DNA of 55,818 nucleotides from Haliangiales bacterium (lineage in GTDB: Bacteria > Myxococcota_A > Polyangia > Haliangiales > SHYZ01). Positions 1 to 52,477 of the stretch are shown here, in pieces. The position numbers and the translations under genes are program-made. The DNA is taken from the NCBI GenBank assembly GCA_046595695.1, contig JBKJOI010000659.1, positions 1 through 55,818 on the forward strand, read 5' to 3'. The notes under the pieces are model-generated. The model ran no database searches. It worked only from the letters and a program-made list of their open reading frames with translations, and was not told the DNA's origin. Position 1 is the stretch's first letter. Each line of letters starts with the position of its first letter.

Positions 1-174
1 AACGCACGTGTGCCCGTTGCCGACGCGCGACTGTCGCTGTCGCTCTCGTGGATGCACTTCAGGTGGCTCGACTACGCGCTGCAGGATGATCGCGACGCGC
101 TGGTCGAGCCACCTGAAGTGCATCCACGAGAGCGACAGCGACAGTCGCGCGTCGGCAACGGGCACACGTGCGTT
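1..174. repeat. Perfect 72-bp inverted repeat (1-72 vs 103-174, 30-bp loop); probable fold-back artefact
   Basis: 1-72 is the exact reverse complement of 103-174; 1-102 read on + gives the DUF3570 C-terminal peptide NARVPVADARLSLSLSWMHFRWLDYALQDDRDALV. Confidence 0.95.
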
Positions 175-1143
175 GACGCTCGCGCCCACGGTGTAGCTGC
201 GCATGCCCCCGAGCGACCGGTCGCGGGTGCGCCAGGACGGCGCGCCCGCGCCGTCGTCGACGTAGCTCGACTCGTAGAAGCTCGCCGCACCCTGCAGGTA
301 AGCGCGCGCATGGACCCCGACGAGCACACGATCCTCATCGCCGAGCGCGAGCACACCTTGACCGCTCGCGGTGTGGCTGGTGATGCCCCAGTCGTCCCGG
401 TACAGGCGGTAGTCGGCCTGCACGAACCAGCGCGACGCGAGCGCGCGACGCACGCGCACCAGCGCCGCCAGCCCGGCCCGCTCGTCGGGGACGGCCTCGG
501 GCAGGCTGTACCGGGCCGAGCCGGTCGCGTCGACCACCGGCACGTAGCGGTACGGGCTCGCCAGGTAGCCGGTCTGCCGCTCGCCGTCCACGACCACGTC
601 GAGGTAGGTGCGCGGATCGAGCGTCTGGGTGAGCGTCAAGGCGAGGCGGTGGCCGCGGCGCGCGCGAGAGAAGCTGGCGTCGCCGGCACGACCCACCGTA
701 TCGAGGGCGCCGGTCCAGGCGACATCGAGCGTGGTATTGCGCTGCGCGACCTCGGTGCGGTAGCCGGCCCCGATCCGGAGCGCGTCGAAGTCGTTCTCGG
801 TCGAGCCCACCGCGCGCACGCTCAGCGTGTGGAGGCGCGCCGGCTGCCACGAGAGCGTGAGGCCACCCTCGACGCGCTCCTCCTCGAACGCGTAGGGGGA
901 CGCCGTCGAGGTCACGTCGACCGACGCCGCGCTGAGCACGTCCACGGTGACCGCGGCCTCGACCGCGAGCCGCTCGCCCAGCCCCGCGCTCGCGCTCGCC
1001 GACGGGCTCCACACCGTGACCGCGTCGTCGTCGGCGTAGACGCGCAGCGCCACGCTCGCGCCCCGCTCGGCCTCCTGGGCGTGCGCGGGGCCCGCGCTCG
1101 CGCCCAGCACGCCCGCCGCGAGCGCCAGGTGCCTCAGTTGCAC
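103..1143 (-). CDS. DUF3570-family outer-membrane protein (3' end broken by the fold-back)
   Basis: Missing from the ORF track because it has no stop. GTG at 1143 overlaps the DUF4266 end; reads MQLRHLALAAGVLGASAGPAHAQ..VYADDDAVTVWSP..VDVLSAASVDVTSTAS, with a signal peptide. Confidence 0.8.
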
Positions 1144-1364
1144 CCGCAGCCTCCCCCCGTCGAGCCGGTGCCGCCCCCCGAGGCCTCGCGGACCTCGTAG
1201 ACGTGCTCGTGGGCCGCGTGCATCACGGGCCAGGCCGGCTGCTGCAGTGCCGGCCTGGCCAGGGTCTCGCGCTGCCACGGCTGCACGCGCACGCACGCGG
1301 ACACCGAGGCCGAGACGAGCGCGAGCGCGGCGGCGCGCAGGAGGCCCCGTAACCCACGCTTCAT
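1134..1364 (-). CDS. DUF4266-family small lipoprotein
   Basis: MKRGLRGLLRAAALALVSASVSAC-VRVQPWQRETLA...REASGGGTGSTGGGCGCN; C-terminal GGGCGCN signature; ATGA overlap with the upstream gene. Confidence 0.9.
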   Translation of the reverse strand: MKRGLRGLLRAAALALVSASVSACVRVQPWQRETLARPALQQPAWPVMHAAHEHVYEVREASGGGTGSTGGGCGCN

Positions 1365-1843
1365 GGGGTCTCCTCCGGAAGGCGCAGCGTGACCAGGAAC
1401 GAGCGCAGCGCCCGGTAGTCGCGATCGTCGGTGCCGCGGAAGCTCGCGCCGCCCTCGTGGCCGCACCCGCCCGCGCCCAGCGCGAGCGGCTTGCGCAGCA
1501 CCAGGCAATCATCGACCGGCGCGCCCGCGAGCAGCGGCTCGAGCGCGAACGCGGCGACCGTGCGCGCGTTGGCCGCGAGCTCGGCCTCGCTGAGCGGCTC
1601 GGCGAGGAAGCGCCTCTCGGGATCGGCGCGGTGGCGCCCCGGGCTGTAGATCGCGAAGGGCCGCTCGGGGCGGCCGTGGCAGCCGGGATCGGCGCAGTGT
1701 CGATCGAGCACCGGCTGCGCCTCGGCGGCGAAGACCCCCAGGTCGCCTTCGGGCAGGCCGCGCGGTGGCCCCGGCTCGACCGCGCACGCGGCGAGCGCGA
1801 GCGCGAGCGCAAGCGCCCGCAGCGCGAGCGCGGCAGCCCTCAA
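1361..1843 (-). CDS. Lipoprotein with one CX4CH putative heme c domain
   Basis: TTG start overlapping the upstream stop, GGAGG upstream; lipobox LAAC; CADPGCH and LRKPL..GGCGHEGG. Confidence 0.8.
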   Translation of the reverse strand: MRAAALALRALALALALAACAVEPGPPRGLPEGDLGVFAAEAQPVLDRHCADPGCHGRPERPFAIYSPGRHRADPERRFLAEPLSEAELAANARTVAAFALEPLLAGAPVDDCLVLRKPLALGAGGCGHEGGASFRGTDDRDYRALRSFLVTLRLPEETP

Positions 1844-4740
1844 CGCGGCACCTCCACCGAGGGCGCGCGGTAGACCGCGCCCAGATCGATCCAGCGGATG
1901 AAGGCGCGGATCACGGCGTCGTCGAGCGGCGGCACCTCGGCGCCGGGCGGTGGACAGGCCATCGCGAGCACGCGCGGCGCACCCAGCTCGCGCCCGGTGA
2001 TCTTCTCGATGAGGTAGGAGCCCCACGCCGACCCGTTGCGCTCGTCGACATAGCGTTTGCCGCCCGTCGAGCCCGCGCCGAAGGCCTGGAGCTGCTCGTA
2101 GGCCGCGTCGTAGTAGCTCGTCGGCGTGGGCGTCAGCGCCAGCCCGCCCGCCGGGACCGCCCCCGCGTGGCAGCCGGCCACCGCGCAGGAGCGAGCCAGA
2201 CTGGGCGCCAGGTCGCGCCCGAAGTCGAAGTCCTGGGCGCCGAGCGAGCCCACGCGCACCGGTGGCAGCGGCCGGCGCGGGTCACGCCCGGCGAAGCTCG
2301 ACAGGGTCACCGAGGCGGTGGTGACCGCGTCGACGTCGAGCGGCGGCAGCGCGCTGGCCGGATCGCCGTCGAGGGCACCGTGACAGCCCGAGCAGAGCCG
2401 ACCGTAACTCGACGGCTGGGCGCCCTGCGGGAAGCGCTCGCCACCCTGCACCGAGAGCCACAGCAGCGAGGGCTGCCCGGCGGCGAAGCCGGCCGCGTCG
2501 AGCACCTGCATCCGCACCGGCACGCGCGCCGGCAACTCGGCCAGCACGGTGCCGTCGGCGGCGAGCGGCACCTCGCCGAGCAGCGCAAGCGGCAGGTGCA
2601 CCCCGTTCGACCACCACGTGGACGCCGGATCGCCGTTCGCGATCTGTGCCGGGTCGACCGCCGGCACGTCGGCCGGGCGCCAGCTCGGCCAGGCCAGGAA
2701 GCGCGCGTGCGCCGCGTCGGCGCGGAGCGGCTTGGCGCCGATGGGGGCGAGCACCCGGTTGACGGCCTCGTTGACCTGGATGCCGCTGTGCTTGAGCAGC
2801 CCGCTCGGCGAGCCGTCCCAGGCGTCGGCGTGGTCGTCGTCCTCGTCGGGCCGCGCGACCACGAGGGCGGGCTGATCATCGGCCTCGCCGGGTGCGTCCC
2901 ACAGCAGCGTTCGCTCGCCGAGGCGCGCGCCCTCGGGGGTGGCCTCGAGCGTGACGATCCACAGCCCGGTGTCGGGCATGGCGCCCGGGTCGATCGGATC
3001 GATCGGCCCCGGCGCGTGGGCGACCAGCAGCCGGCCGTCGGGGAGCGGCGCCGGATCGCGCCACAGCCCGTCGTCGGCGAGCACGGCCCAGGCGTGGCGG
3101 AAGCCGCCCACGGCGAGCTCGTCCAGGCGCTCGGCCGGTACGTCGGGTCCGAACTGGCGCTCCACCAGCGCCAGCGTCCCGCCCTCCCAGAGATCGTCCA
3201 CGCCGAGCAGCACCGCCACGTCGCGCCCGTCGGGGAGCTCGCGCAGGGTCCACACGATCGGGCGCGGCGCCGTCTGGCCGTGGTGCGGGTGGTACTCGGG
3301 CTGGAGGTGCGCCGTCCGATCGTGATCGGGCGGGAACCGGAACACCGCGCCGCGCACCGCGCCGCCCTGGCGACGCAGGGTCGTGAACGCGAGCGAGCCA
3401 CGGAACTCGCCGGTGGCCAGGAAGCTCGGGGCGAGCTCGGGTGTGGGCGTGAAGGTGAGCCGCACCGGCGTGCCGTCGGGCGCCAGGCGGTAGAGCTCCG
3501 CGTCGGCGCGGCGGCCCGACTCGTCGGCGTGCCCGGCGCGGGTCGAGACGTAGTGGATGGCGTCGCCTGGGCCGTAGACGGGCCAACGGCTGGTCGCGCC
3601 CGCACCCGCGCCGGCGGCGCCGTCGTGGGTCAGCCGCCTGAGGCCACCGCCGTCGATCCCGATCTCCCACAGATCGTGGCCCAGGTCGCCGGCGCGGCGC
3701 ATCGCGAAGGCGACGCGCGACCCGTCGTGGCTCACCGTGGGATCGCGCACATCGGCCGGACCATCGGGGTGGGCCCCGGCGCTGAGGTTGACCGGCGTGG
3801 CGCCGGGAAGCAGCGATGGGTGGAACCACACGTCGCTGCCGGGCCGGAACGCCTCCAGGTCGGCGAGCCCGCGCGGCGAGGCCGGGCCGCGCACGAACAC
3901 GACGCCGACTGGTGCGGGCGCGCCGACATGGCCGAGCGCCGCACGCTCCGCGGCGGCCCAGGCCACGATCGCTGCCGCGCCCGGGTCCTCGAGCGGTTCT
4001 CGGCCATTCACGCGCGGGAAGAAGGCGTCGTTGCCGCCGCGGTGGGGGATGCCGCCGTCGGCGAGCGGCAGGGCCTTGACCAGGAGGCGCGAGCGCGCGG
4101 GGTCGCCGGCGAGCGCGAGCGTGGCGCGCGCGGCCTCGCGGTTGGCGCGGATCTCCGCCACCGAGGGCTCGCCGCCCGCGCCGTCCATCGGCGGCGTGAG
4201 CGGCAGCCCGCCGAACTGCTGCGGGCCGTGGCAGCGCGCCAGCATGCAACCACGGTCGCGCAGCACCGGCAGTACGGTGTCGGCAAACTGCCGCTCGAGC
4301 GGCGTCAGCGCCTCGCGTGGCGATCCCTCGCCACCGTCGGTCTCCATGACCACCCACTCGCGCAGGGTGAGCCAGTCACGGTCGTCGCGACCGAGCAGGT
4401 GTCCGCCGGCGTGCGGCAGGCCGCCCTGGGCGAGCGCCAGCGGCTTGCGCAGGAGGCTCGAGAGCTCGGCGCGCTCGACGGTGTTGATGCGCGCCTTGAC
4501 GTTGGCGCGAGCCGCCGTCCGGTCGTTCACCCGACCGGTGGCATCGACGTCGACGAAGAAGTAGGCGCGATCCACGACCTCGCCGGCGGCCTCGGCACCG
4601 GGCGCCACGCCGTGGCACGCCGGCGCCAGGCAACGGCGCTCGAGCACCGGCACCACGCGGGTCTCGAAGAGCTCGCGCGGCGCCGGATCGCCGCAGCCAC
4701 TCTGCAGGATGACGAGGACAGCCAGACCGAGCGAACGCAC
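1840..4740 (-). CDS. Multiheme lipoprotein with TolB-like propeller and hydrazine-synthase-alpha-like middle domain (copy 1)
   Basis: Lipobox-like LQSGC; CLAPACH, CMLARCH, CSGCH, CAVAGCH; PD40-like DPTVSHDGSRVAFA; EVPLAADGTVLAELPARVPVRMQVLD..CSGCH. Confidence 0.85.
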   Translation of the reverse strand: MRSLGLAVLVILQSGCGDPAPRELFETRVVPVLERRCLAPACHGVAPGAEAAGEVVDRAYFFVDVDATGRVNDRTAARANVKARINTVERAELSSLLRKPLALAQGGLPHAGGHLLGRDDRDWLTLREWVVMETDGGEGSPREALTPLERQFADTVLPVLRDRGCMLARCHGPQQFGGLPLTPPMDGAGGEPSVAEIRANREAARATLALAGDPARSRLLVKALPLADGGIPHRGGNDAFFPRVNGREPLEDPGAAAIVAWAAAERAALGHVGAPAPVGVVFVRGPASPRGLADLEAFRPGSDVWFHPSLLPGATPVNLSAGAHPDGPADVRDPTVSHDGSRVAFAMRRAGDLGHDLWEIGIDGGGLRRLTHDGAAGAGAGATSRWPVYGPGDAIHYVSTRAGHADESGRRADAELYRLAPDGTPVRLTFTPTPELAPSFLATGEFRGSLAFTTLRRQGGAVRGAVFRFPPDHDRTAHLQPEYHPHHGQTAPRPIVWTLRELPDGRDVAVLLGVDDLWEGGTLALVERQFGPDVPAERLDELAVGGFRHAWAVLADDGLWRDPAPLPDGRLLVAHAPGPIDPIDPGAMPDTGLWIVTLEATPEGARLGERTLLWDAPGEADDQPALVVARPDEDDDHADAWDGSPSGLLKHSGIQVNEAVNRVLAPIGAKPLRADAAHARFLAWPSWRPADVPAVDPAQIANGDPASTWWSNGVHLPLALLGEVPLAADGTVLAELPARVPVRMQVLDAAGFAAGQPSLLWLSVQGGERFPQGAQPSSYGRLCSGCHGALDGDPASALPPLDVDAVTTASVTLSSFAGRDPRRPLPPVRVGSLGAQDFDFGRDLAPSLARSCAVAGCHAGAVPAGGLALTPTPTSYYDAAYEQLQAFGAGSTGGKRYVDERNGSAWGSYLIEKITGRELGAPRVLAMACPPPGAEVPPLDDAVIRAFIRWIDLGAVYRAPSVEVPR

Positions 4741-4776: not shown

Positions 4777-4790
4777 ATGACCGCCGTCAA
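4777..4790. promoter_or_regulatory. FNR-type box between divergent genes
   Basis: ATGAC-CGCC-GTCAA; centre 41.5 nt before GTG 4825 (+) and 43.5 nt before GTG 4740 (-). Confidence 0.7.
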
Positions 4791-4824: not shown

Positions 4825-5592
4825 GTGCACAGGTCGGACCCGTCCGGCGCGCTCGCGCTCACGCTCACGCTCACGCTCACGCTCACGCTCACGCTCGCGC
4901 TCACGCTCGCGCTCGCCGCCTGCTCGAGCGAGCCGCTCGTGGCTGGCGACGCGGCGGCTGTGCCCCGGGATGCGGGCACGGTGGACGACGGCGGCATCGC
5001 GTGTCCGGCCGGGGGCGTGCGCGGCCGCGGACGCCATCGGCTGTTCGTGCAAGGGCACGGCGGCGAGCCGTACCCCGACGGCCGCTACCCATTCCTGCAC
5101 CCATGGAGCGCCGGCGGCGGCGACGCACCGCTCTGTGACGACGCGGTGTTCGTCGAGGATACCGACGGCGACGGCCGGTGGCAGCCCGGCGAGGCGCCGC
5201 GCCCGCTCGGCCCCGCCGCGCTCGTGCACGGTGAGCACTTCCTCGTCGGTAGTGGTGCCTTCGTCGAGCTCGCGATCACTCTCTGCGACGACATCACCGG
5301 TGACGTGGCGCTGTACATCCCCAACTTCGACGAGGCCGGCAGCCGCGCGCTGCACCAGCTGTTCGTGGTCCACGACGGCGAGGAGCGACTTGTCGCCGAG
5401 GCCGTCGACGACGAAGCCGGGCAGAGCGGCTACAACCCGTTCGTGCGGGTGCTCGCGGGCATCGACCCGCGCGCAACGCCCGGCGACACCTTGCTGCTGC
5501 GCAGCACCAACCTGAACGGCATCCCCTTCTCGGTGATGGTGTGGCAACCGCCCAGCGAGTACGAGTCGTGGATCCTGGTGGAGGTCCCGTGA
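4825..5592 (+). CDS. Hypothetical lipoprotein
   Basis: Real portion of ORF 1765..5592; signal with (LT/LA)n then LAAC; acidic DTDGDG motif; GTGA overlap with the next gene. Confidence 0.75.
   Translation: MHRSDPSGALALTLTLTLTLTLTLALTLALAACSSEPLVAGDAAAVPRDAGTVDDGGIACPAGGVRGRGRHRLFVQGHGGEPYPDGRYPFLHPWSAGGGDAPLCDDAVFVEDTDGDGRWQPGEAPRPLGPAALVHGEHFLVGSGAFVELAITLCDDITGDVALYIPNFDEAGSRALHQLFVVHDGEERLVAEAVDDEAGQSGYNPFVRVLAGIDPRATPGDTLLLRSTNLNGIPFSVMVWQPPSEYESWILVEVP
4851..4916 (+). repeat. Tandem hexamer (GCTCRC)x11 in signal-peptide coding region
   Basis: Counted directly; encodes LALTLTLTLTLTLTLALTLALA. Confidence 0.9.
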
Positions 5593-6173
5593 CGCGCACG
5601 TCCCATCGACGGCTCACCCGGCTCGCCGCCAGCCTGGTGCTCGCGAGCTGCGGCACCGACGCCGGCGACGACCCGCTGCGCAGCGCCGACGCTGGTCCGC
5701 CACCCGATGCGGCGGTCTGTCGCGACGCGGGCGTGCTCGAGCTCGGCGCCTGCCGGCTCACCGAGGGACAGACCTGCCAGGGCCGCGCCGGCGAGGAGCG
5801 TCACTTCGAGACGCTGCCCGAGGGCGGCGCGATGACCATCGTGCTCGGGCCGCAGGGCTCGACCATGTTCGTGTTCTCGGCCCGCACCGCGGGCATCGTG
5901 CCCGGCGATCCAGCCCAGCCGGCCAGCCCCGACAACCCGCTGATCGAGATCCAGGTGTTCGACGACCAAGCCGCGCTGGTCGCGCGTTACCGCGGGCGCG
6001 CGGCGTTCGCGACCGACCCCGGTGTCGGTGGGCTCACCGCGACTGGGCTGTTCGTGGTCGTCGACGGCCCGGCCAGCGCATTCATCGGCCGACGCCTGCG
6101 CGCGATCGCTACCCTCACCGATCGTGACCACGCCGTGCGCTGTGGCGGCGCCTCGTTCGTGGCCGAGAACTGA
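5589..6173 (+). CDS. Hypothetical lipoprotein
   Basis: GTG overlapping the previous stop; LASC lipobox; LGPQGSTMFV motif. Confidence 0.7.
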   Translation: MTRTSHRRLTRLAASLVLASCGTDAGDDPLRSADAGPPPDAAVCRDAGVLELGACRLTEGQTCQGRAGEERHFETLPEGGAMTIVLGPQGSTMFVFSARTAGIVPGDPAQPASPDNPLIEIQVFDDQAALVARYRGRAAFATDPGVGGLTATGLFVVVDGPASAFIGRRLRAIATLTDRDHAVRCGGASFVAEN

Positions 6174-6241: not shown

Positions 6242-6835
6242 TCAGGGCACCGCTTCAGGTCTCTCGCTCGGGTCGCGACTCGTCGCCGCTCCTGGTTTCG
6301 CCACGATCAGCGCAGCGAAGATCTCGGCTCCGAAGCGGTCGACCTGGGCCCAGTCGGTGAACTCGTAGTCCTGGCTGGTGTCGACGGGCCGGCCCTGCGA
6401 GCGACCGATGAGCTTCATCATCAGCCGGGTGAGCCAGCCGTACTGCGTGTAGCGCAGCGCTCCGCCGAACGTCGCGATGTGCGCGGGTTGCCAGTGCACC
6501 CGGGCAAGAAAGGCCGCCACCATCTGATCGAGCCCCTCGCGCACCGAGGCCCGCCGCGAGCTGGCCGACATGCTCACCGAGAAGAATGCGCCCGCCCGGG
6601 TGGCTAGCCTCGGAGCATGGCGCTTCAGCCATCTCTCGATGGCGGCGTGATGGCGGCTCATGTGCACCGGTGAGCCCACGATGACCGCCTCGAAGTTCCT
6701 CGGATCGGGTCGTTCGTAGGCGGCATCGGCGAGATGCACGCGCAGCCCGCGCGTTCGCAGCGTCTCGGCGATGCGGGACGCGATCGTGCGAGTCTGGCCG
6801 TGGCGCGAGGCGAACAGGACGAGGACGCGGGTCAT
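6242..6835 (-). CDS. hemG: Flavodoxin-domain protoporphyrinogen IX dehydrogenase (HemG-like)
   Basis: ASRHGQTRTIA FMN loop; FGGALRYTQY; DTSQDYEFTDWAQVDRF. Confidence 0.85.
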   Translation of the reverse strand: MTRVLVLFASRHGQTRTIASRIAETLRTRGLRVHLADAAYERPDPRNFEAVIVGSPVHMSRHHAAIERWLKRHAPRLATRAGAFFSVSMSASSRRASVREGLDQMVAAFLARVHWQPAHIATFGGALRYTQYGWLTRLMMKLIGRSQGRPVDTSQDYEFTDWAQVDRFGAEIFAALIVAKPGAATSRDPSERPEAVP

Positions 6836-7774: not shown

Positions 7775-8197
7775 TCAGGACGCAACTCGTGCGGTGGTCT
7801 CGTTCGTTGCGGACGTGGTCACGGTCAGCTCCGGTGGATCGAACAGCGTCTTCTTCACCTTGCACGCGGCCGCGGCGCGCGCGACCGCCTCGCGATACTG
7901 GGTCGGGAACTCGGGCGGGACCTGGACGTCGAGGGTGACGCGCGCCAGCCGGCCGGTCTTCGCGTCGTGCTCGCTGCGTTGGACCAAGCGGATGTTCTCG
8001 GTCGGGATGTCCCGGGCACGGCAGAAGGCCGCCACGTACAGGCCCGCACACGTGCCGAGGGAAGCCAGAAAGAGTGTGAATGGCTCCGGTGCACTGCCCT
8101 CGCCACCACTCTCCCGAGGCTGATCGGTGTGCAGGGTGAACCCGTTCACGTGCGCGTCGACGCGCTTGCCGCCGGGAAGGGTGACGATGATCTCCAT
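7775..8197 (-). CDS. OsmC-family protein
   Basis: TDQPRESGGEGSAPEPFTLFLASLGTC...CKVKKTL. Confidence 0.9.
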   Translation of the reverse strand: MEIIVTLPGGKRVDAHVNGFTLHTDQPRESGGEGSAPEPFTLFLASLGTCAGLYVAAFCRARDIPTENIRLVQRSEHDAKTGRLARVTLDVQVPPEFPTQYREAVARAAAACKVKKTLFDPPELTVTTSATNETTARVAS

Positions 8198-8209
8198 GGT
8201 CTGGTCTCC

Positions 8210-8225
8210 TGCATGATGAGAGCCA
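8210..8225 (-). promoter_or_regulatory. sigma54 promoter
   Basis: TGGCTC-TCATC-ATGCA, 12 nt before ATG 8197. Confidence 0.6.
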
Positions 8226-8272
8226 GCTCAGGCTGGAAGGGTTCGGCGAGCGGTCGAACAGGTGCCGGGGCG

Positions 8273-8731
8273 CTAGCGCGCCAGCAGGATCACCTGCCCG
8301 AGCGGATCCAGCTGGCCCTCCTCGACGCACGCGGCACACGCCTCCTCGGAACGAGTGCAGCCGCGACAGCGCGCCAGGCTCTCCCGCGCCTGGATGAGGT
8401 CGTGTCGGGTGCGCGACAGCACAGCGATACGCTCGGTCAGCCGCCGCGCTGCGTCGCTGATCACGTCGAATGTCGCCGCGGCGATGGGTCCGGGGCCGAC
8501 GCCGCCATCCCGGACGGCCAGGATCGACTGGATGCGCGTCAGCGTCAGGCCGCCGGCCTGCAGGGTCAGGATTGCACGCACCCGCCGGACGACCTCGATG
8601 TCGTAGCTTGGCCCTCGCGAGGTCAACGGGCGCGCGATGAGCCCGCGCGCCTGCAGGCGCCGGATGGTCTTGCGCCCGCACCCTGCCATTCGGGCCAGGT
8701 CACCAGTGGAGTAGCGCCGAGGAGTTCCCAC
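8273..8731 (-). CDS. MerR-family regulator with C-terminal Cys cluster
   Basis: YSTGDLARMAGCGRKTIR HTH; GLTLTRI; CRGC..CAAC. Confidence 0.8.
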   Translation of the reverse strand: MGTPRRYSTGDLARMAGCGRKTIRRLQARGLIARPLTSRGPSYDIEVVRRVRAILTLQAGGLTLTRIQSILAVRDGGVGPGPIAAATFDVISDAARRLTERIAVLSRTRHDLIQARESLARCRGCTRSEEACAACVEEGQLDPLGQVILLAR

Positions 8732-8806
8732 ACATCACATGGTGCGCCGAGCGCGCGCGCCACTCAACCTCGGCGACGTACCGATGGGCGACTTGACGAT
8801 CGACAA

Positions 8807-9520
8807 TCACGGCGCCGCCTGGCCGTCGACCACCCAGCGCTCGATGATGCGCACATCCTGGTTCGAGACACCGTCGTGGCCCGCGGCGACGATGGTCACG
8901 AGCAACGAGCTCGCGTCACCAGCGATCACATTCGGGGTGCTGTCCGTGCCGCTACCGAAGGTGTCCTGGTAGCGCGCCACCGAGTAGTTGCCCGCGGTCC
9001 CGTGGCAGTCGCCGCAGGCGTACTTCTCGAGCACCGGGTGGACGTCGGCCGCGAAGCGCGGCGCCGCGCCGGCACCGCCATCGCTTCCCCCGGTGGTGCC
9101 GGCGTCCGTGTCGCCGGCTGGCGCGGGCGCGTACGGTGCCCCATCGGCGATCCACGCGACCCACCGCTGCACCGCGGCGTCGCTGCCGGGGAGCGACGAC
9201 ACGTGACCGCCGAGCCCGGTGGCCATGTCAATGAGCGGACTGTGATCGGCGGTGCCCGCGAAGGCAATCACCTGCTCGTAGTTCGCCTGCCACGCGGCGT
9301 CGTCGCCCGGGGACGCGGTGACGTGCATGGCGATACTCCCACCGCCGTGACACGACTGAGCCGCACAGCCACTCGCCTCGAGGTCTGCCTGGATGGTCGG
9401 GCGGAACATCACGGCAGCGCCAGGGTCAGCGTCGGGCTCGCCGCCCGCGCCGGTGGGAAGCATCGAGCCGCTGCAAGCCGTCGCCATCGCAGCGGCGAGA
9501 ATCACGAGAAGAGCATGCAT
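8807..9520 (-). CDS. Diheme c-type cytochrome lipoprotein
   Basis: ATAC lipobox; CAAQSCH (CX4CH) and CGDCH; FAADVHPVL..C..CH..IERWVVDG pattern. Confidence 0.8.
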   Translation of the reverse strand: MHALLVILAAAMATACSGSMLPTGAGGEPDADPGAAVMFRPTIQADLEASGCAAQSCHGGGSIAMHVTASPGDDAAWQANYEQVIAFAGTADHSPLIDMATGLGGHVSSLPGSDAAVQRWVAWIADGAPYAPAPAGDTDAGTTGGSDGGAGAAPRFAADVHPVLEKYACGDCHGTAGNYSVARYQDTFGSGTDSTPNVIAGDASSLLVTIVAAGHDGVSNQDVRIIERWVVDGQAAP

Positions 9521-10777: not shown

Positions 10778-10791
10778 TTGACGGGCGTCAA
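10778..10791. promoter_or_regulatory. FNR box (symmetric half-sites)
   Basis: TTGAC-GGGC-GTCAA; centre 41.5 nt before ATG 10743 (-), with CACGAT at -12..-7; downstream ORF is a 49-aa remnant. Confidence 0.8.
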
Positions 10792-10925
10792 GGCCGGGTG
10801 CCCAGCGGGCTTCGGTCCGCCGGTGGTTGCTTCCCGCGCGTGGTACACGTCGCAGGTGCCGCGGCCCCGTGCGCCCTGACGGGTAGCCGCGCCGCACGGT
10901 GATCCTGCTGCCCGTCGGAGTCCAA

Positions 10926-32368: not shown

Positions 32369-32380
32369 ATGATCACCGAA

Positions 32381-38876: not shown

Positions 38877-38884
38877 GGGACTCC

Positions 38885-42355: not shown

Positions 42356-42381
42356 GATCGTCTCCGGGGCGAGATGGCGCG

Positions 42382-43128: not shown

Positions 43129-43142
43129 TGGCACGATGGGCA

Positions 43143-43158
43143 AGCAAGGTCTGCGCCG
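43143..43158 (-). promoter_or_regulatory. sigma54 promoter of the nxr-like operon
   Basis: CGGCGC-AGACC-TTGCT, 14 nt before GTG 43128. Confidence 0.6.
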
Positions 43159-43258
43159 TTTCACGTGCCCGTGGATCGAGGGTCTGGACGATCGGAAGCC
43201 CGCAATTGTCGCGGCCCCGTCCGGCAACACAGAAATTCCTGCGCGCTTCTGACGAAGC

Positions 43259-43301
43259 GTGACGCCGATCAAGGCTTCTCTTGGGCGGCATCGCGCGTGC
43301 A
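43259..43301 (+). promoter_or_regulatory. FNR-like box plus sigma54 motif before moaA
   Basis: GTGAC-GCCG-ATCAA (43259-43272); CGGCAT-CGCGC-GTGCA (43286-43301), 14 nt before GTG 43316. Confidence 0.55.
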
Positions 43302-43315
43302 TTTCGCGCCGTCTC

Positions 43316-44299
43316 GTGACCCCCTCACTCCACGACTCGTGCGGACGCCTGGTACGTGCGCTGCGCGTCTCCGTCACCGACCGCTGCAACCTCCGCTGCC
43401 ACTACTGCATGCCCGCGGATGCCGAGCGCTTCGATGATCCCCGTCAACTGCTGAGCTTCGACGACATCGTGCGCGTCGTGCGCGTCGCCTGCAGCCTCGG
43501 CATCGATCGGGTTCGCCTGACCGGCGGCGAGCCGTTGGTGCGCCCACACGTGACGACGCTCATCGCACGGCTCAAGGCCGAGACGCCGGTCGCCGAGGTG
43601 GCGATGACGACCAATGGCATGCTGCTTTCCCGCCACCTCGACGGGCTGGTCGCGGCCGGGCTGGACCGCCTCACCGTGAGCGTGGACTCACTGCGCCCCG
43701 AGCGCTTCCGGCGGATCACCCGGGTCGGCGCCCTCGACGAGGTCTGGCGCGGCGTCACCCTGGCGGCCCAGGCCGGGCTGCGCCCGCTCAAGATCAACGT
43801 CCTCGTGCTCGCCGGGACCAACGACGACGAGATCGACGCCTGGGTCGAGCTGTCCCGTCAGCACGACCTCGTGGTGCGCCTGCTGGAGCTGATGCCGATC
43901 GGCGAGGGCGCCGCGAATCCGGGCGGCGGGTACGTCGACCTCACCGAGGTGCGGCGCCGGCTGGTGCGTGACCACGGCCTGCAGGCGGTCGACGGGCCCG
44001 GTGGAAACGGACCCGCGCGCTACTGGAAGGTCCCGGGCGCGGCCGGCACCCTCGGCTTCATCACGCCCATCTCGGAGCACTACTGCGCCTCGTGCAGCCG
44101 GTTTCGCCTGACCGCGCGGGGCGAGCTGCGCCCGTGTCTGGCGCATGACCAACAGGTGCCGCTGTTCGCCGCCATCCGCCACGGCGACGACGCCGCCATC
44201 CTGGCCGGGTTCCGGGCCGCAGCGGCGCAGAAGCCCGTGGGCCACGCCTGGCAGGCGGGCGCGACCACCCTCACCCAGATGTCGCGGCTGGGCGGATGA
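43316..44299 (+). CDS. moaA: GTP 3',8-cyclase MoaA
   Basis: LRVSVTDRCNLRCHYCMP, TGGEP, CASCSRFRLT..C, terminal GG. Confidence 0.95.
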   Translation: MTPSLHDSCGRLVRALRVSVTDRCNLRCHYCMPADAERFDDPRQLLSFDDIVRVVRVACSLGIDRVRLTGGEPLVRPHVTTLIARLKAETPVAEVAMTTNGMLLSRHLDGLVAAGLDRLTVSVDSLRPERFRRITRVGALDEVWRGVTLAAQAGLRPLKINVLVLAGTNDDEIDAWVELSRQHDLVVRLLELMPIGEGAANPGGGYVDLTEVRRRLVRDHGLQAVDGPGGNGPARYWKVPGAAGTLGFITPISEHYCASCSRFRLTARGELRPCLAHDQQVPLFAAIRHGDDAAILAGFRAAAAQKPVGHAWQAGATTLTQMSRLGG

Positions 44300-50849: not shown

Positions 50850-50863
50850 TTGACCGCGGTCAA
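50850..50863. promoter_or_regulatory. FNR box (perfect palindrome)
   Basis: TTGAC-CGCG-GTCAA; centre 41.5 nt before ATG 50815. Confidence 0.85.
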
Positions 50864-50904
50864 GGCCGAGGCGTCTGATTGACGTGGGCTCCTGATCGCA
50901 CGCC

Positions 50905-50920
50905 TGGCACGGGGCTCGCA
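50905..50920 (+). promoter_or_regulatory. sigma54 promoter
   Basis: TGGCAC-GGGGC-TCGCA, 13 nt before ATG 50934. Confidence 0.7.
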
Positions 50921-50933
50921 GAGTTCGGCGCGC

Positions 50934-51914
50934 ATGCTTGCCGCTCGCTCCCCGATCCGATCCGCTCCGCGCTCGTCGCGCTCGTCGCGCTCGTCGCGCC
51001 GGTCGCGTGCACCGAGGCGCCGGCCCGCGGCGCGCCGATCAAGCTTTTCGTCGCCGCGCAGAGCTCGGGCAGCATTGTGGTGCTCGACGACGACAACATC
51101 GACCCGCTCGCGACCATCTCCACCGGTGGGTGCTCGCCCCACAACTTCGCGCTCACCGCCGACCGCATGCACCCGCTGGTGGCCTGCGACGATCTGACCG
51201 GCGAAGAACCCGACCAGTTGCTGGTGATCGATCCTGCAACCAACGCGGTCGGTCCGGCTCACCGATCTGACCCTGGGCGTCGAGATGAGCTACCCGGCGC
51301 TGCGCCGACCCCATGGCCTGCGCGCCTGCGGCGACGGACGGCGCCTCTACAACGCCAACACCGAGGGCAGCGTCAGCGAGCTCGACGTCGCCACCGGGCT
51401 GGTGCTGCGCGAGTGGGCCCTGCCCGGCCCGGCGATCCAGGTCGCGGTCGGCACCGACGCGATCTTCGCGACGGTAAGCTACCCGCCCGTGGTCGCACGC
51501 ATCCCGCTGCACGGCGGTGAGGCGAGCTCGTACCCCGTGCCCGGCGCCCACGAGCTCGCGCAGGTCACGCTCACGCCTGACGGCGCGCACCGGCTGGTCG
51601 CCGACCAGGGCACTGCCGACCGCTCGGGCAACCGGCTGTTCGTCCTCGACGCGCGCACCGGCGCGCTCGAGCGCAGCATCGAGGTCGGGCTGGGCGCGCA
51701 CGGCGTGGCGGTCGCGCCGGACGGCCGGCGCGCCTGGATCTCGGCGCTCTTCGACCACACCGTCACCCTCGTCGACCTCGAGAGCGGCCACGTGATCGCG
51801 GTCGAGCGCGCCGGCCATGCGCCCGCTGGCCGCCGGGCTGGGCATCCCGGTCGCGACGGCACGCGCCTCAGCCGCGCGCGCCTGCGCCTCCGCGTGCTGC
51901 TGCGCAAGCAGTGA
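50934..51914 (+). pseudogene. Frameshifted YVTN/YncE beta-propeller lipoprotein
   Basis: PVAC lipobox and PHNFALTAD in one frame; PHGL..DGRRLY and AHGVAVAPDGRRAW in another. Confidence 0.7.
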
Positions 51915-51943
51915 GTCAGCCAGCGGGGCGCGGGCTCAGGCCC

Positions 51944-52441
51944 TCAGATGCCACCCGAGGGGCGAGCGGCAACCACTTCCTCGACGATCCGCAACAGCTC
52001 GCTGTGATGTACCGGCTTGGCCAGGTAGCGCATGAGCGGCGAACGCACGGCGCCGCGGCCGTCGGACGCGCTGACGATCACGATCGGAACCTGGGCGAAG
52101 CGGCTGTAGGAGCGCAACACGTCGATGAACTCGAGACCGTCCATGACCGGCATGAGCAGATCGAGGACGATCAAGAGCGGCGTCGCGTGATCCATGAGCA
52201 GCTCGAGCGCCTCCTTGCCGTTGCGCGCCGCGATCACGGCGTAGCCCGCGGCGTGCAGGCTGGTCCGAAAGAGCTCTTGCGCGTCCTCGCTGTCGTCGAC
52301 CACGAGCACCATGCCGCGGCGCCGCAGCGCGCGCGGGATCTTTCCGGTGACCGCCTCGTCGTCGATCACGTCGGCGACGACGCCGTCCTGGTCTTCGGAT
52401 CCTGCACACGCGGGCGCTGAGATGGCGTTGGTTTGCTGCAT
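51944..52441 (-). CDS. Response regulator receiver protein
   Basis: VLVVDDSED, IVLDLLMPVMDG, IVSA, AKP. Confidence 0.88.
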   Translation of the reverse strand: MQQTNAISAPACAGSEDQDGVVADVIDDEAVTGKIPRALRRRGMVLVVDDSEDAQELFRTSLHAAGYAVIAARNGKEALELLMDHATPLLIVLDLLMPVMDGLEFIDVLRSYSRFAQVPIVIVSASDGRGAVRSPLMRYLAKPVHHSELLRIVEEVVAARPSGGI

Positions 52442-52461
52442 GTCGTGCCGTGCTGGAGTCG

Positions 52462-52477
52462 AGCAAGCGCCGCGCCA
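52462..52477 (-). promoter_or_regulatory. sigma54 promoter
   Basis: TGGCGC-GGCGC-TTGCT, 20 nt before ATG 52441. Confidence 0.65.

What the first reader, a model, noticed from the sequence alone, without database searches (positions are those of the whole stretch)
103..52477. Whole-island model: non-canonical N-oxide respiration with a missing nitrite-to-NO step
Seen: nitrate/nitrite interconversion (NXR-type), NO reduction (eNOR-like), cofactor supply (moaA, hemG, cyoE, SCO), NO buffers and a shared regulatory grammar, but no narGHI, nap, nirK, nirS, nrfA, norB or nosZ. Inference: a denitrification-like chain built from atypical parts that standard marker screens would miss. The HzsA-like proteins are the unexplained co-regulated enzymes.
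Basis: inference. Interest (0 to 1): 0.8.

Follow-up and report, generated by a model that had tools for sequence, protein, structure and literature searches.

The report
Low-oxygen nitrogen-oxide respiration gene mosaic
A myxobacterium-like genome has gathered a nitrate/nitrite enzyme of the anammox type, an unusual nitric-oxide reductase and a set of hydrazine-synthase look-alikes of unknown function into one stretch, most of it under a common oxygen-sensor type of DNA signal.

Summary
They include a Tat-exported Kuenenia/Nitrospira-type NxrABC with its chaperone and an eNOR-type haem-copper NO reductase cassette. Also present are moaA, a hemG-like gene, cyoE, SCO, a hemerythrin, three FNR paralogues and HzsA-like haem proteins.

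FNR-type palindromes are strongly enriched: 14 in the window against 0.66 expected. They sit upstream of the NXR operon and of all three HzsA-like genes, but not upstream of the eNOR cassette.

The "built only from atypical parts" reading fails at genome level. nrfA, a clade II nosZ and a napA split over two contig ends lie on other contigs. nirK, nirS, narG, cNOR/qNOR and HAO were not found in a genome that is 93% complete. That is the known ammonifier genotype (nap + nrfA + nor + nosZ, no nir).

The island is a mosaic. The eNOR cassette never sits next to NXR in 78 related loci. NXR does travel with the HzsA-like operon in relatives.

The HzsA-like gene heads a conserved six-gene operon: HzsA-like, small haem lipoprotein, DUF4266, DUF3570, an unknown gene, and an HzsBC-like gene. 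It runs off the window onto contig C802. I found no description of this operon in the papers I searched. Its function is unknown.

The parts
103..1152 (-). DUF3570 protein with a signal peptide. Its last 27 codons and stop codon lie on contig C802. Window 1-102 is an inverted fold-back artefact.
   Evidence: PF12094 scores 129 bits. The first 24 nt of C802 equal the reverse complement of window 103-126, and C802 completes a C-terminus like those of the orthologues. The only flavinylation-like motif found is SAAS.
1134..1364 (-). DUF4266 small lipoprotein ending in GGGCGCN
   Evidence: PF14086 scores 67.6 bits. Found in 14 of 16 HzsA-like loci.
1361..1843 (-). Small lipoprotein with one CX4CH haem motif, related to the N-terminal repeats of HzsA-like 1
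   Evidence: Translation. No Pfam family. Found in 16 of 16 HzsA-like loci.
1840..4740 (-). HzsA-like 1: a 966-aa lipoprotein with four conserved haem c motifs (C37x4CH, C165x4CH, C783xxCH, C852x4CH) and a TolB-like propeller
   Evidence: The AF2 model has pLDDT 90.9. The top PDB fold is Kuenenia HzsA 5C2V_A (E 6.2e-29, TM 0.64 by target length); the next fold is TolB at 1.7e-12. The motifs are invariant in alignments A1 and A2.
4777..4790 (.). FNR-type box 37 nt upstream of the HzsA-like 1 start codon, in the divergent region shared with a lipoprotein gene
   Evidence: A box lies within 50 nt upstream of the orthologue in 9 of 13 related loci, with differing spacer letters.
4825..6173 (+). 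Two lipoprotein genes of unknown function (about 255 and 210 aa), divergent from HzsA-like 1. The first has an (LT)n repeat in its signal region.
   Evidence: Both keep this position in relatives.
6242..6835 (-). HemG-like flavodoxin (menaquinone-dependent protoporphyrinogen dehydrogenase type)
   Evidence: PF12724 scores 122.5 bits. NF008316 scores 133 bits, just under its 142-bit cut-off. A 70%-identical paralogue lies on C818.
7775..9520 (-). OsmC, a MerR regulator and a lipoprotein with two haem motifs. A box at 8793-8806 lies upstream of MerR.
10778..13034 (+). Perfect FNR-type box (10778-10791) followed by an ADP-forming acetyl-CoA synthetase gene
13739..14712 (-). Short HZS_alpha-domain cytochrome (287 aa) with an FNR-type box at 14699-14712, 97 nt upstream
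   Evidence: PF18582 scores 28.5 bits, over its 26.6-bit cut-off. Box.
14868..16583 (+). Radical SAM protein (start uncertain), with two boxes at 15342 and 15456
17132..20176 (-). HzsA-like 2: a 998-aa lipoprotein whose true start is the ATG at 20128. A perfect FNR-type box lies at 20163-20176.
   Evidence: The GC3 frame plot and translation set the start. PF18582 scores 31.5 bits. It is about 29% identical to HzsA-like 1.
20468..21763 (+). FAD-dependent oxidoreductase (DAO family), divergent from HzsA-like 2
   Evidence: PF01266 scores 196.9 bits
21618..22765 (-). Two Crp/Fnr paralogues. One has only the cNMP domain. Both have Cys-rich N-termini.
22898..29771 (-). eNOR cassette. In order: a degenerate subunit-I paralogue (28395-29771), the CuA subunit II (27741-28265), subunit I (26117-27730), a 59-aa subunit (25924-26103), SCO1 (24983-25939), and a cytochrome b - 2x[4Fe-4S] - FlpD fusion (22898-24979).
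   Evidence: Conservation across 78 related loci, in the same order: 78, 76, 78, 66, 68 and 67. H-x3-Q is present in 76 of 78.
29797..30729 (+). Haem O synthase (cyoE/ctaB); start uncertain. It is the only copy found in the genome.
   Evidence: TIGR01473 scores 262.5 bits, over its cut-off. Copy number. Adjacent to eNOR in 22 of 78 loci.
30807..31825 (+). FNR-type box, a DGC-domain protein (30933-31328) and a monohaem cytochrome c lipoprotein (31388-31825)
   Evidence: An 83%-identical paralogue of the cytochrome c lies just upstream of nosZ on C986. A homologue flanks nxrD in 5 of 5 related NXR loci.
32357..33052 (+). Third Crp/Fnr paralogue
33096..35592 (-). FNR-type box (35579-35592), a conserved 600-aa protein of unknown family (33713-35515) and a hemerythrin (33096-33674)
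   Evidence: The Atlas finds only hypothetical-protein clusters, at 0.99.
36111..43230 (-). NXR operon: a conserved unknown gene (42382-43230), nxrA (38885-42355, Tat signal), nxrB (37740-38876), nxrC (36800-37711, haem b, lipoprotein signal) and a NarJ-like chaperone (36111-36800)
   Evidence: The same gene order occurs in 3 relatives and 2 metagenome contigs.
43259..44299 (+). FNR-type box (43259-43272) in the divergent region, followed by moaA (GTP 3',8-cyclase)
   Evidence: TIGR02666 scores 334 bits, over its cut-off. Box.
50850..51914 (+). Perfect FNR-type box between a TetR gene and a YVTN beta-propeller gene that reads in two frames

Best explanation
The window is a mosaic gene neighbourhood for respiration at low oxygen, in a myxobacterium-like genome. 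It was assembled from at least three modules with separate histories. Most of it is wired to FNR-type regulators encoded in the window.

Module 1 is a Tat-exported NxrABC of the Kuenenia/Nitrospira type, with a NarJ-like chaperone, a conserved unknown gene and moaA. I infer that it works mainly as a periplasmic nitrate reductase fed by cytochrome c. The enzyme family is reversible, and the FNR-type control points to use when oxygen is scarce.

Module 2 is a complete eNOR cassette that reduces NO to N2O.

Module 3 is a six-gene operon: HzsA-like, small haem lipoprotein, DUF4266, DUF3570, an unknown gene, and an HzsBC-like gene. It is a periplasmic haem (and possibly flavin) redox system whose substrate is unknown.

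Together with napA, nrfA and clade II nosZ on other contigs, the organism is a nitrate/nitrite ammonifier that can also consume NO and N2O. It has no dedicated NO-forming nitrite reductase. NO would then arise as a by-product of NrfA or the molybdenum enzymes, from chemical reaction of nitrite with Fe(II), or from neighbouring cells.

Shown: the gene identities, the signature residues, the synteny, the box enrichment and its conservation, and the presence or absence of markers. Inferred: the direction of NXR, the source of NO, regulation by FNR, and any role of the HZS-like operon.
For: Gene identities:
- NxrA scores 879.8 bits against 7B04_B, with the Mo and FS0 ligands kept. The NxrC Met/Lys haem ligands are kept. 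NxrA has a twin-arginine signal.
- eNOR: Tyr is replaced by Gln, and all six His are kept. Subunit II has a CuA motif. The cassette is conserved in 66-78 of 78 loci, and Gln is present in 76 of 78.

Genome context:
- nrfA scores 446.7 bits and nosZ 851 bits. napA is in two pieces at contig ends.
- No nirK, nirS or narG scores over its cut-off.
- There are only 4 haem-copper oxidases: aa3, two cbb3 and this one.
- No HAO family was found among 10 ORFs with 5-8 haem motifs.

Regulation:
- 14 boxes against 0.66 expected, about 8 times the genome density, and 3 of the genome's 8 perfect sites.
- By my refined gene starts, 10 of the 14 lie between genes.
- A box is conserved upstream of HzsA-like orthologues in 9 of 13 loci, and boxes lie upstream of fnr-nxr in relatives.

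Mosaic structure:
- nxrA, nxrB and nxrC each lie near eNOR in 0 of 78 loci.
- NxrA is in 3 of 100 relatives and eNOR in 2 of 100, in different genomes.

Other:
- The cytochrome c has an 83%-identical paralogue beside nosZ.
- The genome has 20 ORFs with 5 or more CXXCH motifs, several MtrC-like. This fits iron-linked chemistry.
- The nir-less genotype is known from DNRA bacteria.
Against: - The genome is 93.3% complete in 1016 contigs, so a nirK or nirS could sit in the missing part.
- No expression data exist. FNR binding to the boxes is untested, and the eNOR cassette has no box.
- The direction of NXR cannot be read from sequence. napA already covers nitrate reduction, which makes a second nitrate reductase less obviously needed.
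- The tight linkage of the HZS-like operon to NXR in relatives hints at a more specific shared pathway than 'by-product NO'.
- The PF13447 search rang in no control genome, so it says little. The HAO check therefore rests on the 10 ORFs with 5-8 haem motifs that I fetched, out of the 20 multihaem ORFs found.
Confidence: 0.6

Rival explanations
1. The island is one self-contained denitrification-like chain: NXR makes nitrite, an enzyme in the island (the HZS-like haem complex) makes NO from nitrite, and eNOR removes the NO.
For: - In 4 related assemblies, HzsA-like 1 and its operon are contiguous with fnr, the conserved unknown gene and nxrABCD (G033, G056, L120, L122).
- All three HZS_alpha genes in the window carry the FNR-type box.
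- A 42%-identical HzsA-like/DUF3570 set sits beside an eNOR cassette in an unrelated MAG, L041.
- No nirK or nirS is over its cut-off in the own genome or in 2 of the 3 NXR-bearing relatives.
Against: - Close HzsA-like 1 orthologues occur without NxrA in 5 relatives: G022, G029, G037, G006 and G009.
- Two of the five relatives tested also have a canonical nir. G022, which has the full operon, has nirK at 373.5 bits. G094, where only a distant HzsA-like hit was seen, has nirS at 317 bits.
- HzsA-like genes are near eNOR in only 1 of 78 loci.
- No biochemical precedent for nitrite reduction by HZS homologues was seen in the papers I read.
- nrfA, nap and nosZ elsewhere show that the island is not self-contained.
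Confidence: 0.12
2. NXR runs in the oxidising direction. Nitrite is oxidised to nitrate, and the electrons pass by way of the cytochrome c lipoprotein to eNOR, NosZ or the cbb3 oxidases. This would serve as nitrite detoxification or as an energy source at the oxic-anoxic boundary.
For: - The enzyme belongs to the clade of nitrite oxidisers and anammox bacteria, and keeps their 3Cys/1Asp FS0 cluster and Met/Lys high-potential haem b.
- Planctomycetota MAGs with such genes were proposed to be nitrite oxidisers (passages of PMC10732223).
- The cytochrome c paralogue beside nosZ offers a path for the electrons.
- Two cbb3 oxidases are present.
Against: - The FNR-type boxes and the FNR gene in the operon point to induction when oxygen is low.
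- The organism has nrfA and other hallmarks of a heterotrophic anaerobe.
- The same clade serves nitrate reducers such as Thermogutta and Methanoperedens (as stated in PMC10732223).
- Kuenenia NXR works both ways (PMC8387239).
Confidence: 0.15
3. The HZS-like operon has nothing to do with nitrogen oxides. It is an extracytoplasmic electron-transfer system of the DUF3570/DUF4266 kind, serving metal, sulfur or thiol redox chemistry. It sits beside NXR only because both belong to the anaerobic regulon.
For: - DUF3570 is an experimentally shown ApbE substrate. It occurs in DUF4266/thioredoxin/DsbD clusters, some of them with iron transporters (passages of eLife PMC8238504).
- The HzsA-like superfamily is widespread: 51 of 100 relatives have a match at E<=1e-20, and 107 clusters match at E<=1e-30.
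- A 9-haem MtrC-like cytochrome lies 1.2 kb beyond the operon on C802.
- ApbE is present in the genome.
Against: - The flavinylation motif [S/T]GA[S/T] is replaced by SAAS in the window's copy, and no ApbE lies in the operon.
- Adjacency to NXR recurs, and in one case the set sits next to eNOR.
- The only homologue with a known function, hydrazine synthase, acts on NO, hydroxylamine and ammonium.
Confidence: 0.2

Closest known systems
eNOR family of haem-copper NO reductases (Rhodothermus marinus enzyme; Murali et al. 2024, PMC11214002)
   Same: - Related to the B family.
- The active-site Tyr is replaced by Gln.
- Three metal His and the haem His residues are kept.
- Subunit II is of the CuA type.
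- The operon includes a haem O synthase, SCO1 and a 'scaffold' gene, as described for Ferrigenium (preprint 10.64898/2026.01.22.701106).
   Different: - In this subclade a cytochrome b-FeS-FlpD fusion is almost always attached (67 of 78 loci), whereas the preprint calls such genes unusual.
- No ctaA lies in the cassette; ctaA is on C310.
- Placement in a tree with the R. marinus protein was not tested.
- Activity is unknown.
Periplasmic nitrite oxidoreductase NxrABC of Kuenenia stuttgartiensis (7B04; PMC8387239) and Nitrospira/Nitrospina
   Same: - Full-length similarity of the alpha subunit (879.8 bits).
- Asp275, Asn70 and the 3Cys/1Asp FS0 cluster are kept.
- The Met/Lys haem b subunit, the Tat export signal and a NarJ-like chaperone are present.
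   Different: - The host is a heterotroph-like myxobacterial genome carrying nrfA, nosZ and nap.
- The operon is led by an FNR-type gene or box and by a conserved unknown gene.
- No NXR-T-like tubule subunit was recognised.
- NxrC has a lipoprotein-type signal.
- The direction of catalysis is unknown.
Distant co-localised homologues of hydrazine synthase alpha and beta-gamma subunits (clades I-IV of PMC12758564)
   Same: - The alpha-like protein has the whole HzsA fold.
- A beta-propeller plus dihaem gene lies in the same operon.
- The Tyr591-type haem ligand is missing, so hydrazine synthesis is unlikely.
   Different: - Here the alpha-like protein has an extra N-terminal part of about 270 residues with two CX4CH motifs.
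- A small haem lipoprotein, DUF4266 and DUF3570 lie between the alpha-like and beta-gamma-like genes. That paper's main text describes FG-GAP and ABC-transporter neighbours instead.
- Myxococcota appear only in its supplementary hit tables (415 word matches), not in its main text. 'DUF3570' appears in neither.
Nitrate/nitrite ammonifiers with nap, nrfA, nor and nosZ but no nirK/nirS (Bacillus sp. DNRA2; Anaeromyxobacter dehalogenans)
   Same: The same marker genotype at genome level (passages of 10.1101/2023.02.16.528904).
   Different: - The NO reductase here is eNOR, not norB.
- An NXR-type enzyme and the HZS-like operon are added.
DUF3570/DUF4266 flavinylation-associated electron transfer clusters (PMC8238504)
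   Same: An adjacent DUF4266 (with a CXC end) and DUF3570 pair, both secreted.
   Different: - No ApbE, thioredoxin-like or DsbD gene was recognised in the operon.
- The motif is SAAS rather than [S/T]GA[S/T].
- The pair is embedded among c-type haem proteins.

Membership tests
eNOR (haem-copper NO reductase) | Gln in place of the cross-linked active-site Tyr (H-x3-Y becomes H-x3-Q) | tested here: met
   GHQSQQ aligns to GHPxxY of the ba3-type oxidases. 76 of 78 homologous loci have H-x3-Q. The criterion comes from PMC8756737, section 2.7.1 and Table A4.
eNOR (haem-copper NO reductase) | Three active-site His and three haem His ligands of subunit I | tested here: met
   LTLHG, GH, AHH and HFH all align with the ba3 ligands.
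eNOR (haem-copper NO reductase) | Cupredoxin subunit II of the CuA type | tested here: met
   H-x34-C-x-E-x-C-x3-H-x2-M is read in the translation. The motif itself is recalled, not taken from a call.
eNOR (haem-copper NO reductase) | Conserved K-channel-like residues | tested here: inconclusive
   The equivalents of ba3 S309 and T315 are kept, but T312 is His (my reading of the alignment). The other channel residues were not mapped.
eNOR (haem-copper NO reductase) | Clusters with the characterised R. marinus enzyme in a tree; NO reductase activity without O2 reduction | not tested
   The only indirect evidence is 68-69% identity to homologues in Rhodothermales MAGs. No reference sequence was at hand. 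Activity needs biochemistry.
Periplasmic NXR (Kuenenia/Nitrospira type) | The alpha subunit is closest to NxrA rather than to NarG, Pcr, Ebd or Ser | tested here: met
   879.8 bits over residues 7-1155 against 7B04_B. The next best is 154.5 bits.
Periplasmic NXR (Kuenenia/Nitrospira type) | Asp275 as Mo ligand, Asn70 as substrate residue, and an FS0 cluster with 3 Cys + Asp71 | tested here: met
   All are conserved in the alignment. The residue roles come from PMC8387239.
Periplasmic NXR (Kuenenia/Nitrospira type) | Haem b subunit with Met/Lys ligation, and Tat export | tested here: met
   The equivalents of Met155 and Lys305 are present. NxrA has SRRLFLKG at its N-terminus.
Periplasmic NXR (Kuenenia/Nitrospira type) | Physiological nitrite oxidation | not testable with these tools
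   The enzyme family is bidirectional.
Hydrazine synthase | Whole-chain fold of the alpha subunit | tested here: met
   Foldseek against 5C2V_A gives E 6.2e-29 over 825 columns, with TM 0.64 by target length.
Hydrazine synthase | [quoted passage not shown] | tested here: not met
   Alpha: 42.7 bits against 800. Beta: about 40 against 560. The BC fusion: 39-45.5 against 1250. Gamma: 18-28 against 625. The beta, BC and gamma scores come from orthologues.
Hydrazine synthase | Tyr591 as the haem alpha-I ligand, four residues after the CXXCH His | tested here: not met
   The position four residues after His787 is Asp in the window, and D, S, A, E or N in 16 aligned homologues. The criterion comes from PMC12758564. 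This is a sequence alignment only.
Hydrazine synthase | Beta-gamma partner encoded in the same operon | tested here: met
   A propeller + dihaem gene lies on C802 (689-3133) and in 11 of 16 related loci. The propeller's best PDB fold is HzsB (E 5.1e-18), only just ahead of a generic YVTN propeller at 1.9e-16. The gamma-like part was modelled at pLDDT 25-30 and could not be judged.
Hydrazine synthase | Hydrazine dehydrogenase / HAO partner in the genome | tested here: inconclusive
   PF13447 gave no match, but no control genome rang either. Of 20 ORFs with 5 or more haem motifs, I fetched 10 (those with 5-8 motifs); none matches HAO.
Canonical denitrifier | NO-forming nitrite reductase NirK or NirS | tested here: not met
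   TIGR02376 scores at best 52.1 bits against 296.3. PF02239 scores at best 23.5 bits against 25.5. The genome is 93.3% complete.
ApbE-flavinylated DUF3570 systems | [S/T]GA[S/T] flavinylation motif and a neighbouring ApbE | tested here: not met
   Only SAAS is found. The single ApbE is on C413.

The most novel reading that the evidence does not exclude
The conserved six-gene operon (HzsA-like, small haem lipoprotein, DUF4266, DUF3570, unknown gene, HzsBC-like) encodes a previously uncharacterised periplasmic enzyme complex that acts on a nitrogen-oxide intermediate. It might make NO from nitrite, or reduce NO to hydroxylamine or ammonium. It would work with the anammox-type NXR under FNR control. 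On this reading, non-anammox bacteria carry a working relative of hydrazine synthase that fills the 'missing' step in nir-less nitrate respirers.
Probability: 0.13. Interest if true: 0.85.

Novelty: new variant of a known kind. Interest (0 to 1): 0.55.

Why it matters
Marker-gene surveys score N2O sources and sinks by narG, nirK/nirS, norB and nosZ. This genome would be scored as an ammonifier with nosZ only. Its NO reductase (eNOR) and its second nitrate/nitrite enzyme (NXR type) would be missed.

More interesting is the pairing of two enzyme families otherwise emblematic of anammox bacteria: the periplasmic NXR and homologues of all three hydrazine synthase subunits. Here they sit side by side, both preceded by the same FNR-type signal, in relatives of this myxobacterium-like organism. 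This gives the unexplained HZS homologues a defined operon, a likely inducing condition (low oxygen) and a likely metabolic neighbourhood. The question of what they do becomes directly testable.

Tried and rejected
- **RNA evidence:** no RNA holder was listed for window 33000-42900. Read laying was therefore not used, and co-expression stays untested.
- **PF13447 (HAO) search of the own genome:** no match, but no control genome rang, so it carries no weight on its own. I replaced it with a count of CXXCH-rich ORFs followed by a Pfam scan of 10 of the 20 ORFs found.
- **C384 as a divergent NirK:** rejected. It is a Tat-exported two-domain multicopper oxidase with an HCH motif, scoring 52 bits against a 296-bit cut-off.
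- **C740 (722 aa) as a qNOR:** rejected. It is a CcoN-CcoO fusion of the cbb3 type.
- **Structure of the HzsBC-like protein:** with only 5 aligned sequences the model reached pLDDT 51.8. The C-terminal dihaem half was unusable. Only the propeller half was compared.
- **Atlas look-ups:** the 600-aa unknown matched only hypothetical clusters. The conserved gene upstream of nxrA scored below 0.8.
- **Overlap test for C802:** a first test that looked only for overlap at the very ends found nothing. The join became clear once the fold-back at window 1-102 was recognised.
- **Earlier scan notes by words:** nothing found.
- **Not used:** The search for homologous proteins, complex prediction, RNA-family tools and tandem-repeat tools.

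Full report
**Setting.** The window is contig C876 of an 8.19-Mb assembly in 1016 contigs. The assembly is 93.3% complete with 5% contamination. GC is 66-76%, so raw ORF lists are noisy: 209 ORFs of at least 100 aa. I called genes by third-position GC. I named them with Pfam (59 candidate ORFs; further ORFs) and NCBIfam (37 ORFs). The nearest homologues of several genes lie in MAGs titled Myxococcales, Polyangiaceae or Deltaproteobacteria. I did not test the taxonomy further.

**Are the parts real?** They are.

The molybdoenzyme alpha subunit (38885-42355, minus strand, 1156 aa) matches Kuenenia NxrA (7B04_B) over its full length at 879.8 bits. Perchlorate reductase scores 154.5, ethylbenzene dehydrogenase 124 and NarG 119. 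The residues that the structure paper names are all conserved in that alignment: Asp275 on Mo, Asn70, and the unusual 3Cys/1Asp FS0 cluster with Cys67, Asp71 and Cys75 (passages of PMC8387239). The N-terminus carries a twin-arginine signal. The haem b subunit keeps Met155 and Lys305. A type II DMSO-reductase chaperone follows.

The haem-copper oxidase subunit I (26117-27730, minus strand) is closest to B-family oxidases. It reads GHQSQQ where they read GHPxxY, and it keeps the HH pair and the haem histidines. Gln at this site is the published diagnostic of eNOR (PMC8756737, section 2.7.1 and Table A4). eNOR from Rhodothermus marinus is a proven NO reductase (PMC11214002, passages and section 7). 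Subunit II has a complete CuA motif.

moaA, cyoE, SCO1, a HemG-like flavodoxin, a hemerythrin and three Crp/Fnr paralogues are also present.

**Regulatory grammar.** The palindrome TTGAYN4RTCAA, allowing one mismatch, occurs 14 times against 0.66 expected; 0 of 100 shuffles reach 14. Genome-wide there are 246 such sites, or 0.30 per 10 kb. The window has 2.5 per 10 kb, the highest density among 111 contigs of at least 15 kb. It also holds 3 of the 8 perfect sites in the genome.

By my refined gene starts, 10 of the 14 sites lie between genes. They sit upstream of the following:
- HzsA-like 1, HzsA-like 2 and a third, short HZS_alpha-domain gene
- the divergent region between the NXR operon and moaA
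- the DGC and cytochrome c genes
- the 600-aa unknown and hemerythrin
- the acetyl-CoA synthetase gene
- MerR
- the TetR and propeller genes

No site with up to two mismatches lies upstream of the eNOR cassette. In relatives, a box with a different spacer sequence sits within 50 nt upstream of the HzsA-like orthologue in 9 of 13 loci. Boxes also precede fnr-nxr. The motif is therefore conserved, not merely inherited as sequence. That FNR-type proteins bind it is inferred.

Found:
- nrfA (C999, 446.7 bits)
- a Sec-type clade II nosZ (C986, 851 bits against a 625-bit cut-off)
- a napA broken over two contig ends (C476 covers model positions 356-830 at 501 bits; C288 covers positions 2-296 at 324 bits)

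Not found over cut-off:
- nirK (best 52.1 bits against 296.3)
- nirS (best 23.5 against 25.5)
- narG (the best hit is the window's own NxrA)

Only four haem-copper oxidases exist: an aa3, two cbb3 and the eNOR. So there is no cNOR or qNOR. The HAO search is weak because no control genome rang. Of the 20 ORFs with five or more CXXCH motifs, I fetched ten, those with five to eight motifs. They match only c7, c3 or MtrC-like families.

The missing nitrite-to-NO step therefore stands, within the limits of a 93%-complete assembly. But the genotype nap + nrfA + nor + nosZ without nir is a described ammonifier pattern (passages of bioRxiv 10.1101/2023.02.16.528904).

**Is the island one unit?** It is not.

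Using subunit I, I fetched 78 loci from one-genome-per-species contigs. The cassette is strongly conserved. Counts out of 78, in gene order, are:
- degenerate subunit-I paralogue: 78
- subunit II: 76
- subunit I: 78
- 59-aa subunit: 66
- SCO1: 68
- cytochrome b-FeS-FlpD fusion: 67

cyoE is nearby in 22 of the 78. nxrA, nxrB and nxrC are each within 10 kb in 0 of 78, and an HzsA-like gene in 1 of 78. Gln is present in 76 of 78; the two exceptions look like hits to the degenerate paralogue.

Among 100 relatives, NxrA occurs in 3, all in one genus, at 78-81% identity. eNOR occurs in 2 others. None of the 100 has both.

**What does travel together?** In G033 and G056, and in two metagenome contigs (L120, L122), the gene order is compact. 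The cytochrome c gene lies next to nxrD. The unknown gene, nxrA, nxrB, nxrC and nxrD follow in line, with an fnr gene upstream. Next to fnr come the two lipoprotein genes, and then the divergent HzsA-like 1 operon. These assemblies are close kin of one another (HzsA-like 1 at 67-69% identity), so they count as few independent observations. Close HzsA-like 1 orthologues also occur without NxrA, in G022, G029, G037, G006 and G009.

**The HzsA-like genes.** HzsA-like 1 is a 966-aa lipoprotein. A 38-sequence alignment gave a model with pLDDT 90.9 and pTM 0.90. Its best PDB match by far is the hydrazine synthase alpha subunit (5C2V_A, E 6.2e-29, 825 aligned columns). TolB propellers follow at 1.7e-12.

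Four haem motifs are invariant: two CX4CH motifs in an extra N-terminal part, the CSGCH of the HZS_alpha middle domain, and one C-terminal motif. The tyrosine that ligates haem alpha-I in true HzsA, four residues after the CXXCH histidine (PMC12758564), is Asp here and never Tyr in 16 homologues. The NCBIfam equivalog score is 42.7 bits against a cut-off of 800. The protein has the HzsA fold but is not a hydrazine synthase by these criteria.

The wider family is large. It has 1064 representatives at E<=0.001 and 107 at E<=1e-30. Some paralogue is present in 51 of 100 relatives.

**A six-gene operon that leaves the window.** Downstream of HzsA-like 1 lie three further genes in the window:
- a small CX4CH lipoprotein (1361-1843)
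- DUF4266 (1134-1364; 67.6 bits)
- DUF3570 (103-1152)

Window 1-102 is an inverted fold-back. Contig C802 begins with the reverse complement of window 103-126 and completes the DUF3570 C-terminus in the way the orthologues end. C802 then encodes an unknown gene of about 140-180 aa and an 815-aa protein with a YVTN/lactonase propeller and two CXXCH motifs.

Orthologues of that last protein score about 40 bits on the hydrazine synthase beta model and 39-45.5 bits on the beta-gamma fusion model. They score only 18-28 bits on the gamma model. By sequence, HzsB is matched at E 4.6e-11 and HzsC at 0.38. The propeller half of a low-confidence model (pLDDT 51.8 overall) has HzsB as its best PDB fold at E 5.1e-18. 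A generic YVTN propeller is only just behind at 1.9e-16.

Across 16 related loci the counts are:
- small haem gene: 16
- DUF4266: 14
- DUF3570: 14
- the unknown gene: 11
- the HzsBC-like gene: 11

Of the five loci without the last two, three end too early and two (L129, L130) have flank but no match.

DUF3570 is a proven ApbE flavinylation substrate, and DUF4266 has a redox-type CXC end (passages of PMC8238504). Here, however, the motif is SAAS rather than [S/T]GA[S/T]. The only ApbE is on another contig.

**Is this in print?**
- The 2025 paper on anammox enzyme origins describes distant, co-localised alpha and beta-gamma homologues in four clades, with FG-GAP or ABC-transporter neighbours. 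It concludes they cannot make hydrazine (passages).
- Its main text has no match for 'Myxococc', 'DUF3570' or 'DUF4266'. Its one supplementary file held as text lists Myxococcota hits (415 word matches) but not DUF3570.
- A search of the paper library for DUF3570 or DUF4266 found five papers, four of them listed. None links these domains to hydrazine-synthase-like genes, judged by title or abstract for three of them and by passages for the eLife paper.
- Low-similarity hzs-like genes and Kuenenia-type nxr genes in Planctomycetota MAGs are reported in PMC10732223 (passages and section 10).
- A search for 'nitrite oxidoreductase', 'Myxococcota' and 'nxrA' gave 27 papers, of which 15 were listed. 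All were surveys, and I read none of them beyond the listing.

The operon architecture and its link to NXR and the FNR-type box are thus, as far as these searches go, undescribed.

**Does the operon replace Nir?** Among five relatives tested, G022 (which has the full operon) has a true nirK at 373.5 bits. G094, where only a distant HzsA-like hit was seen, has a nirS at 317.1 bits. G033 and G056 have neither over the cut-off. G006 has only a marginal 26-bit match. The operon therefore coexists with canonical Nir in at least one genome. This argues against a simple substitution.

**Working model and rivals.** I rate as most likely (0.6) that this is an FNR-wired low-oxygen respiration neighbourhood in a nitrate/nitrite ammonifier.
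- NXR serves mainly as a cytochrome-c-fed periplasmic nitrate reductase. Its clade includes nitrate reducers and the enzyme is reversible.
- eNOR removes NO, and NosZ removes N2O.
- NO arises adventitiously or chemically. The genome's many multihaem cytochromes, several of them MtrC-like, make iron-linked chemistry plausible.
- The cytochrome c lipoprotein next to the DGC gene has an 83%-identical paralogue directly upstream of nosZ. It is a natural shared electron carrier for NXR, the CuA site of eNOR and NosZ.

The rivals are:
- NXR as a nitrite oxidase feeding eNOR, NosZ or cbb3
- an HZS-like operon unrelated to nitrogen

None is excluded.

**Verdict.** Most of the parts are new members of known families. 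The six-gene HZS-like operon, with its link to NXR and FNR-type control, is a new variant worth following up.

Noticed in passing
window 1-126 and contig C802 1-84: Window 1-102 is an inverted fold-back of the adjoining sequence, with 2 differences from C802. C802 starts with the reverse complement of window 103-126 and is the true continuation.
   Followed up: yes
window 28395-29771 (-): The gene heading the eNOR cassette is a 26%-identical paralogue of subunit I. It keeps the haem histidines (LVVHV, PGHYH) but has lost the HH metal ligands. It is present in 78 of 78 related loci and is probably the 'eNOR scaffold protein' mentioned in a preprint.
   Followed up: partly
window 22898-24979 (-): A 693-aa fusion of a cytochrome b (bc1/b6-like), two [4Fe-4S] motifs and an FlpD/MvhD-like domain ends the eNOR cassette in 67 of 78 loci. 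It suggests a dedicated electron route across the membrane to or from the cytoplasm.
   Followed up: partly
window 31388-31825 (+) and contig C986 1996-2277: The monohaem cytochrome c lipoprotein has an 83%-identical paralogue directly upstream of the clade II nosZ.
   Followed up: partly
window 50879-51914 (+): A YVTN beta-propeller gene reads in two overlapping frames (50879-51520 and 51285-51914). This may be a frameshift or an assembly error. A perfect FNR-type box lies 16 nt upstream.
   Followed up: no
window about 4840-4890: A GAGCGT-type hexamer repeat encodes (LT)n in the signal region of the lipoprotein gene divergent from HzsA-like 1. The repeat could vary in length.
   Followed up: no
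window 9830-11005 (-) and 10311-10682 (+): Two partial matches overlap on opposite strands and look like gene remnants. One is a benzoyl-CoA reductase B-like match covering only residues 233-346 of its ORF (200 bits). The other is the lid and Fis HTH tail of a sigma-54-type activator.
   Followed up: no
contig C802 4364-7390 (-), 9384-11006 (-): Beyond the HzsBC-like gene lie a 9-haem MtrC/MtrF-like cytochrome and a B12-binding radical SAM gene. The radical SAM gene has a perfect FNR-type box 91 nt upstream. C802 holds 2 of the genome's 8 perfect boxes.
   Followed up: partly
whole genome: There are 20 ORFs with five or more CXXCH motifs, the richest having 28. This fits a metal-respiring lifestyle.
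   Followed up: partly
contig C384 2775-4001 (+): A Tat-exported two-domain multicopper oxidase gives weak NirK-model hits (52 and 24 bits) but has the HCH motif of laccase-like enzymes.
   Followed up: partly
contig C818: A second small oxygen-switch cluster holds a fourth FNR paralogue (48% identical), a second HemG-like gene (70% identical), a hemerythrin, and CBS and GAF proteins.
   Followed up: no
window 33713-35515 (-): A 600-aa protein with no Pfam family belongs to a conserved hypothetical family found in Ignavibacteriota and Bacteroidota (Atlas score 0.99). An FNR-type box precedes it and the hemerythrin gene follows it.
   Followed up: partly
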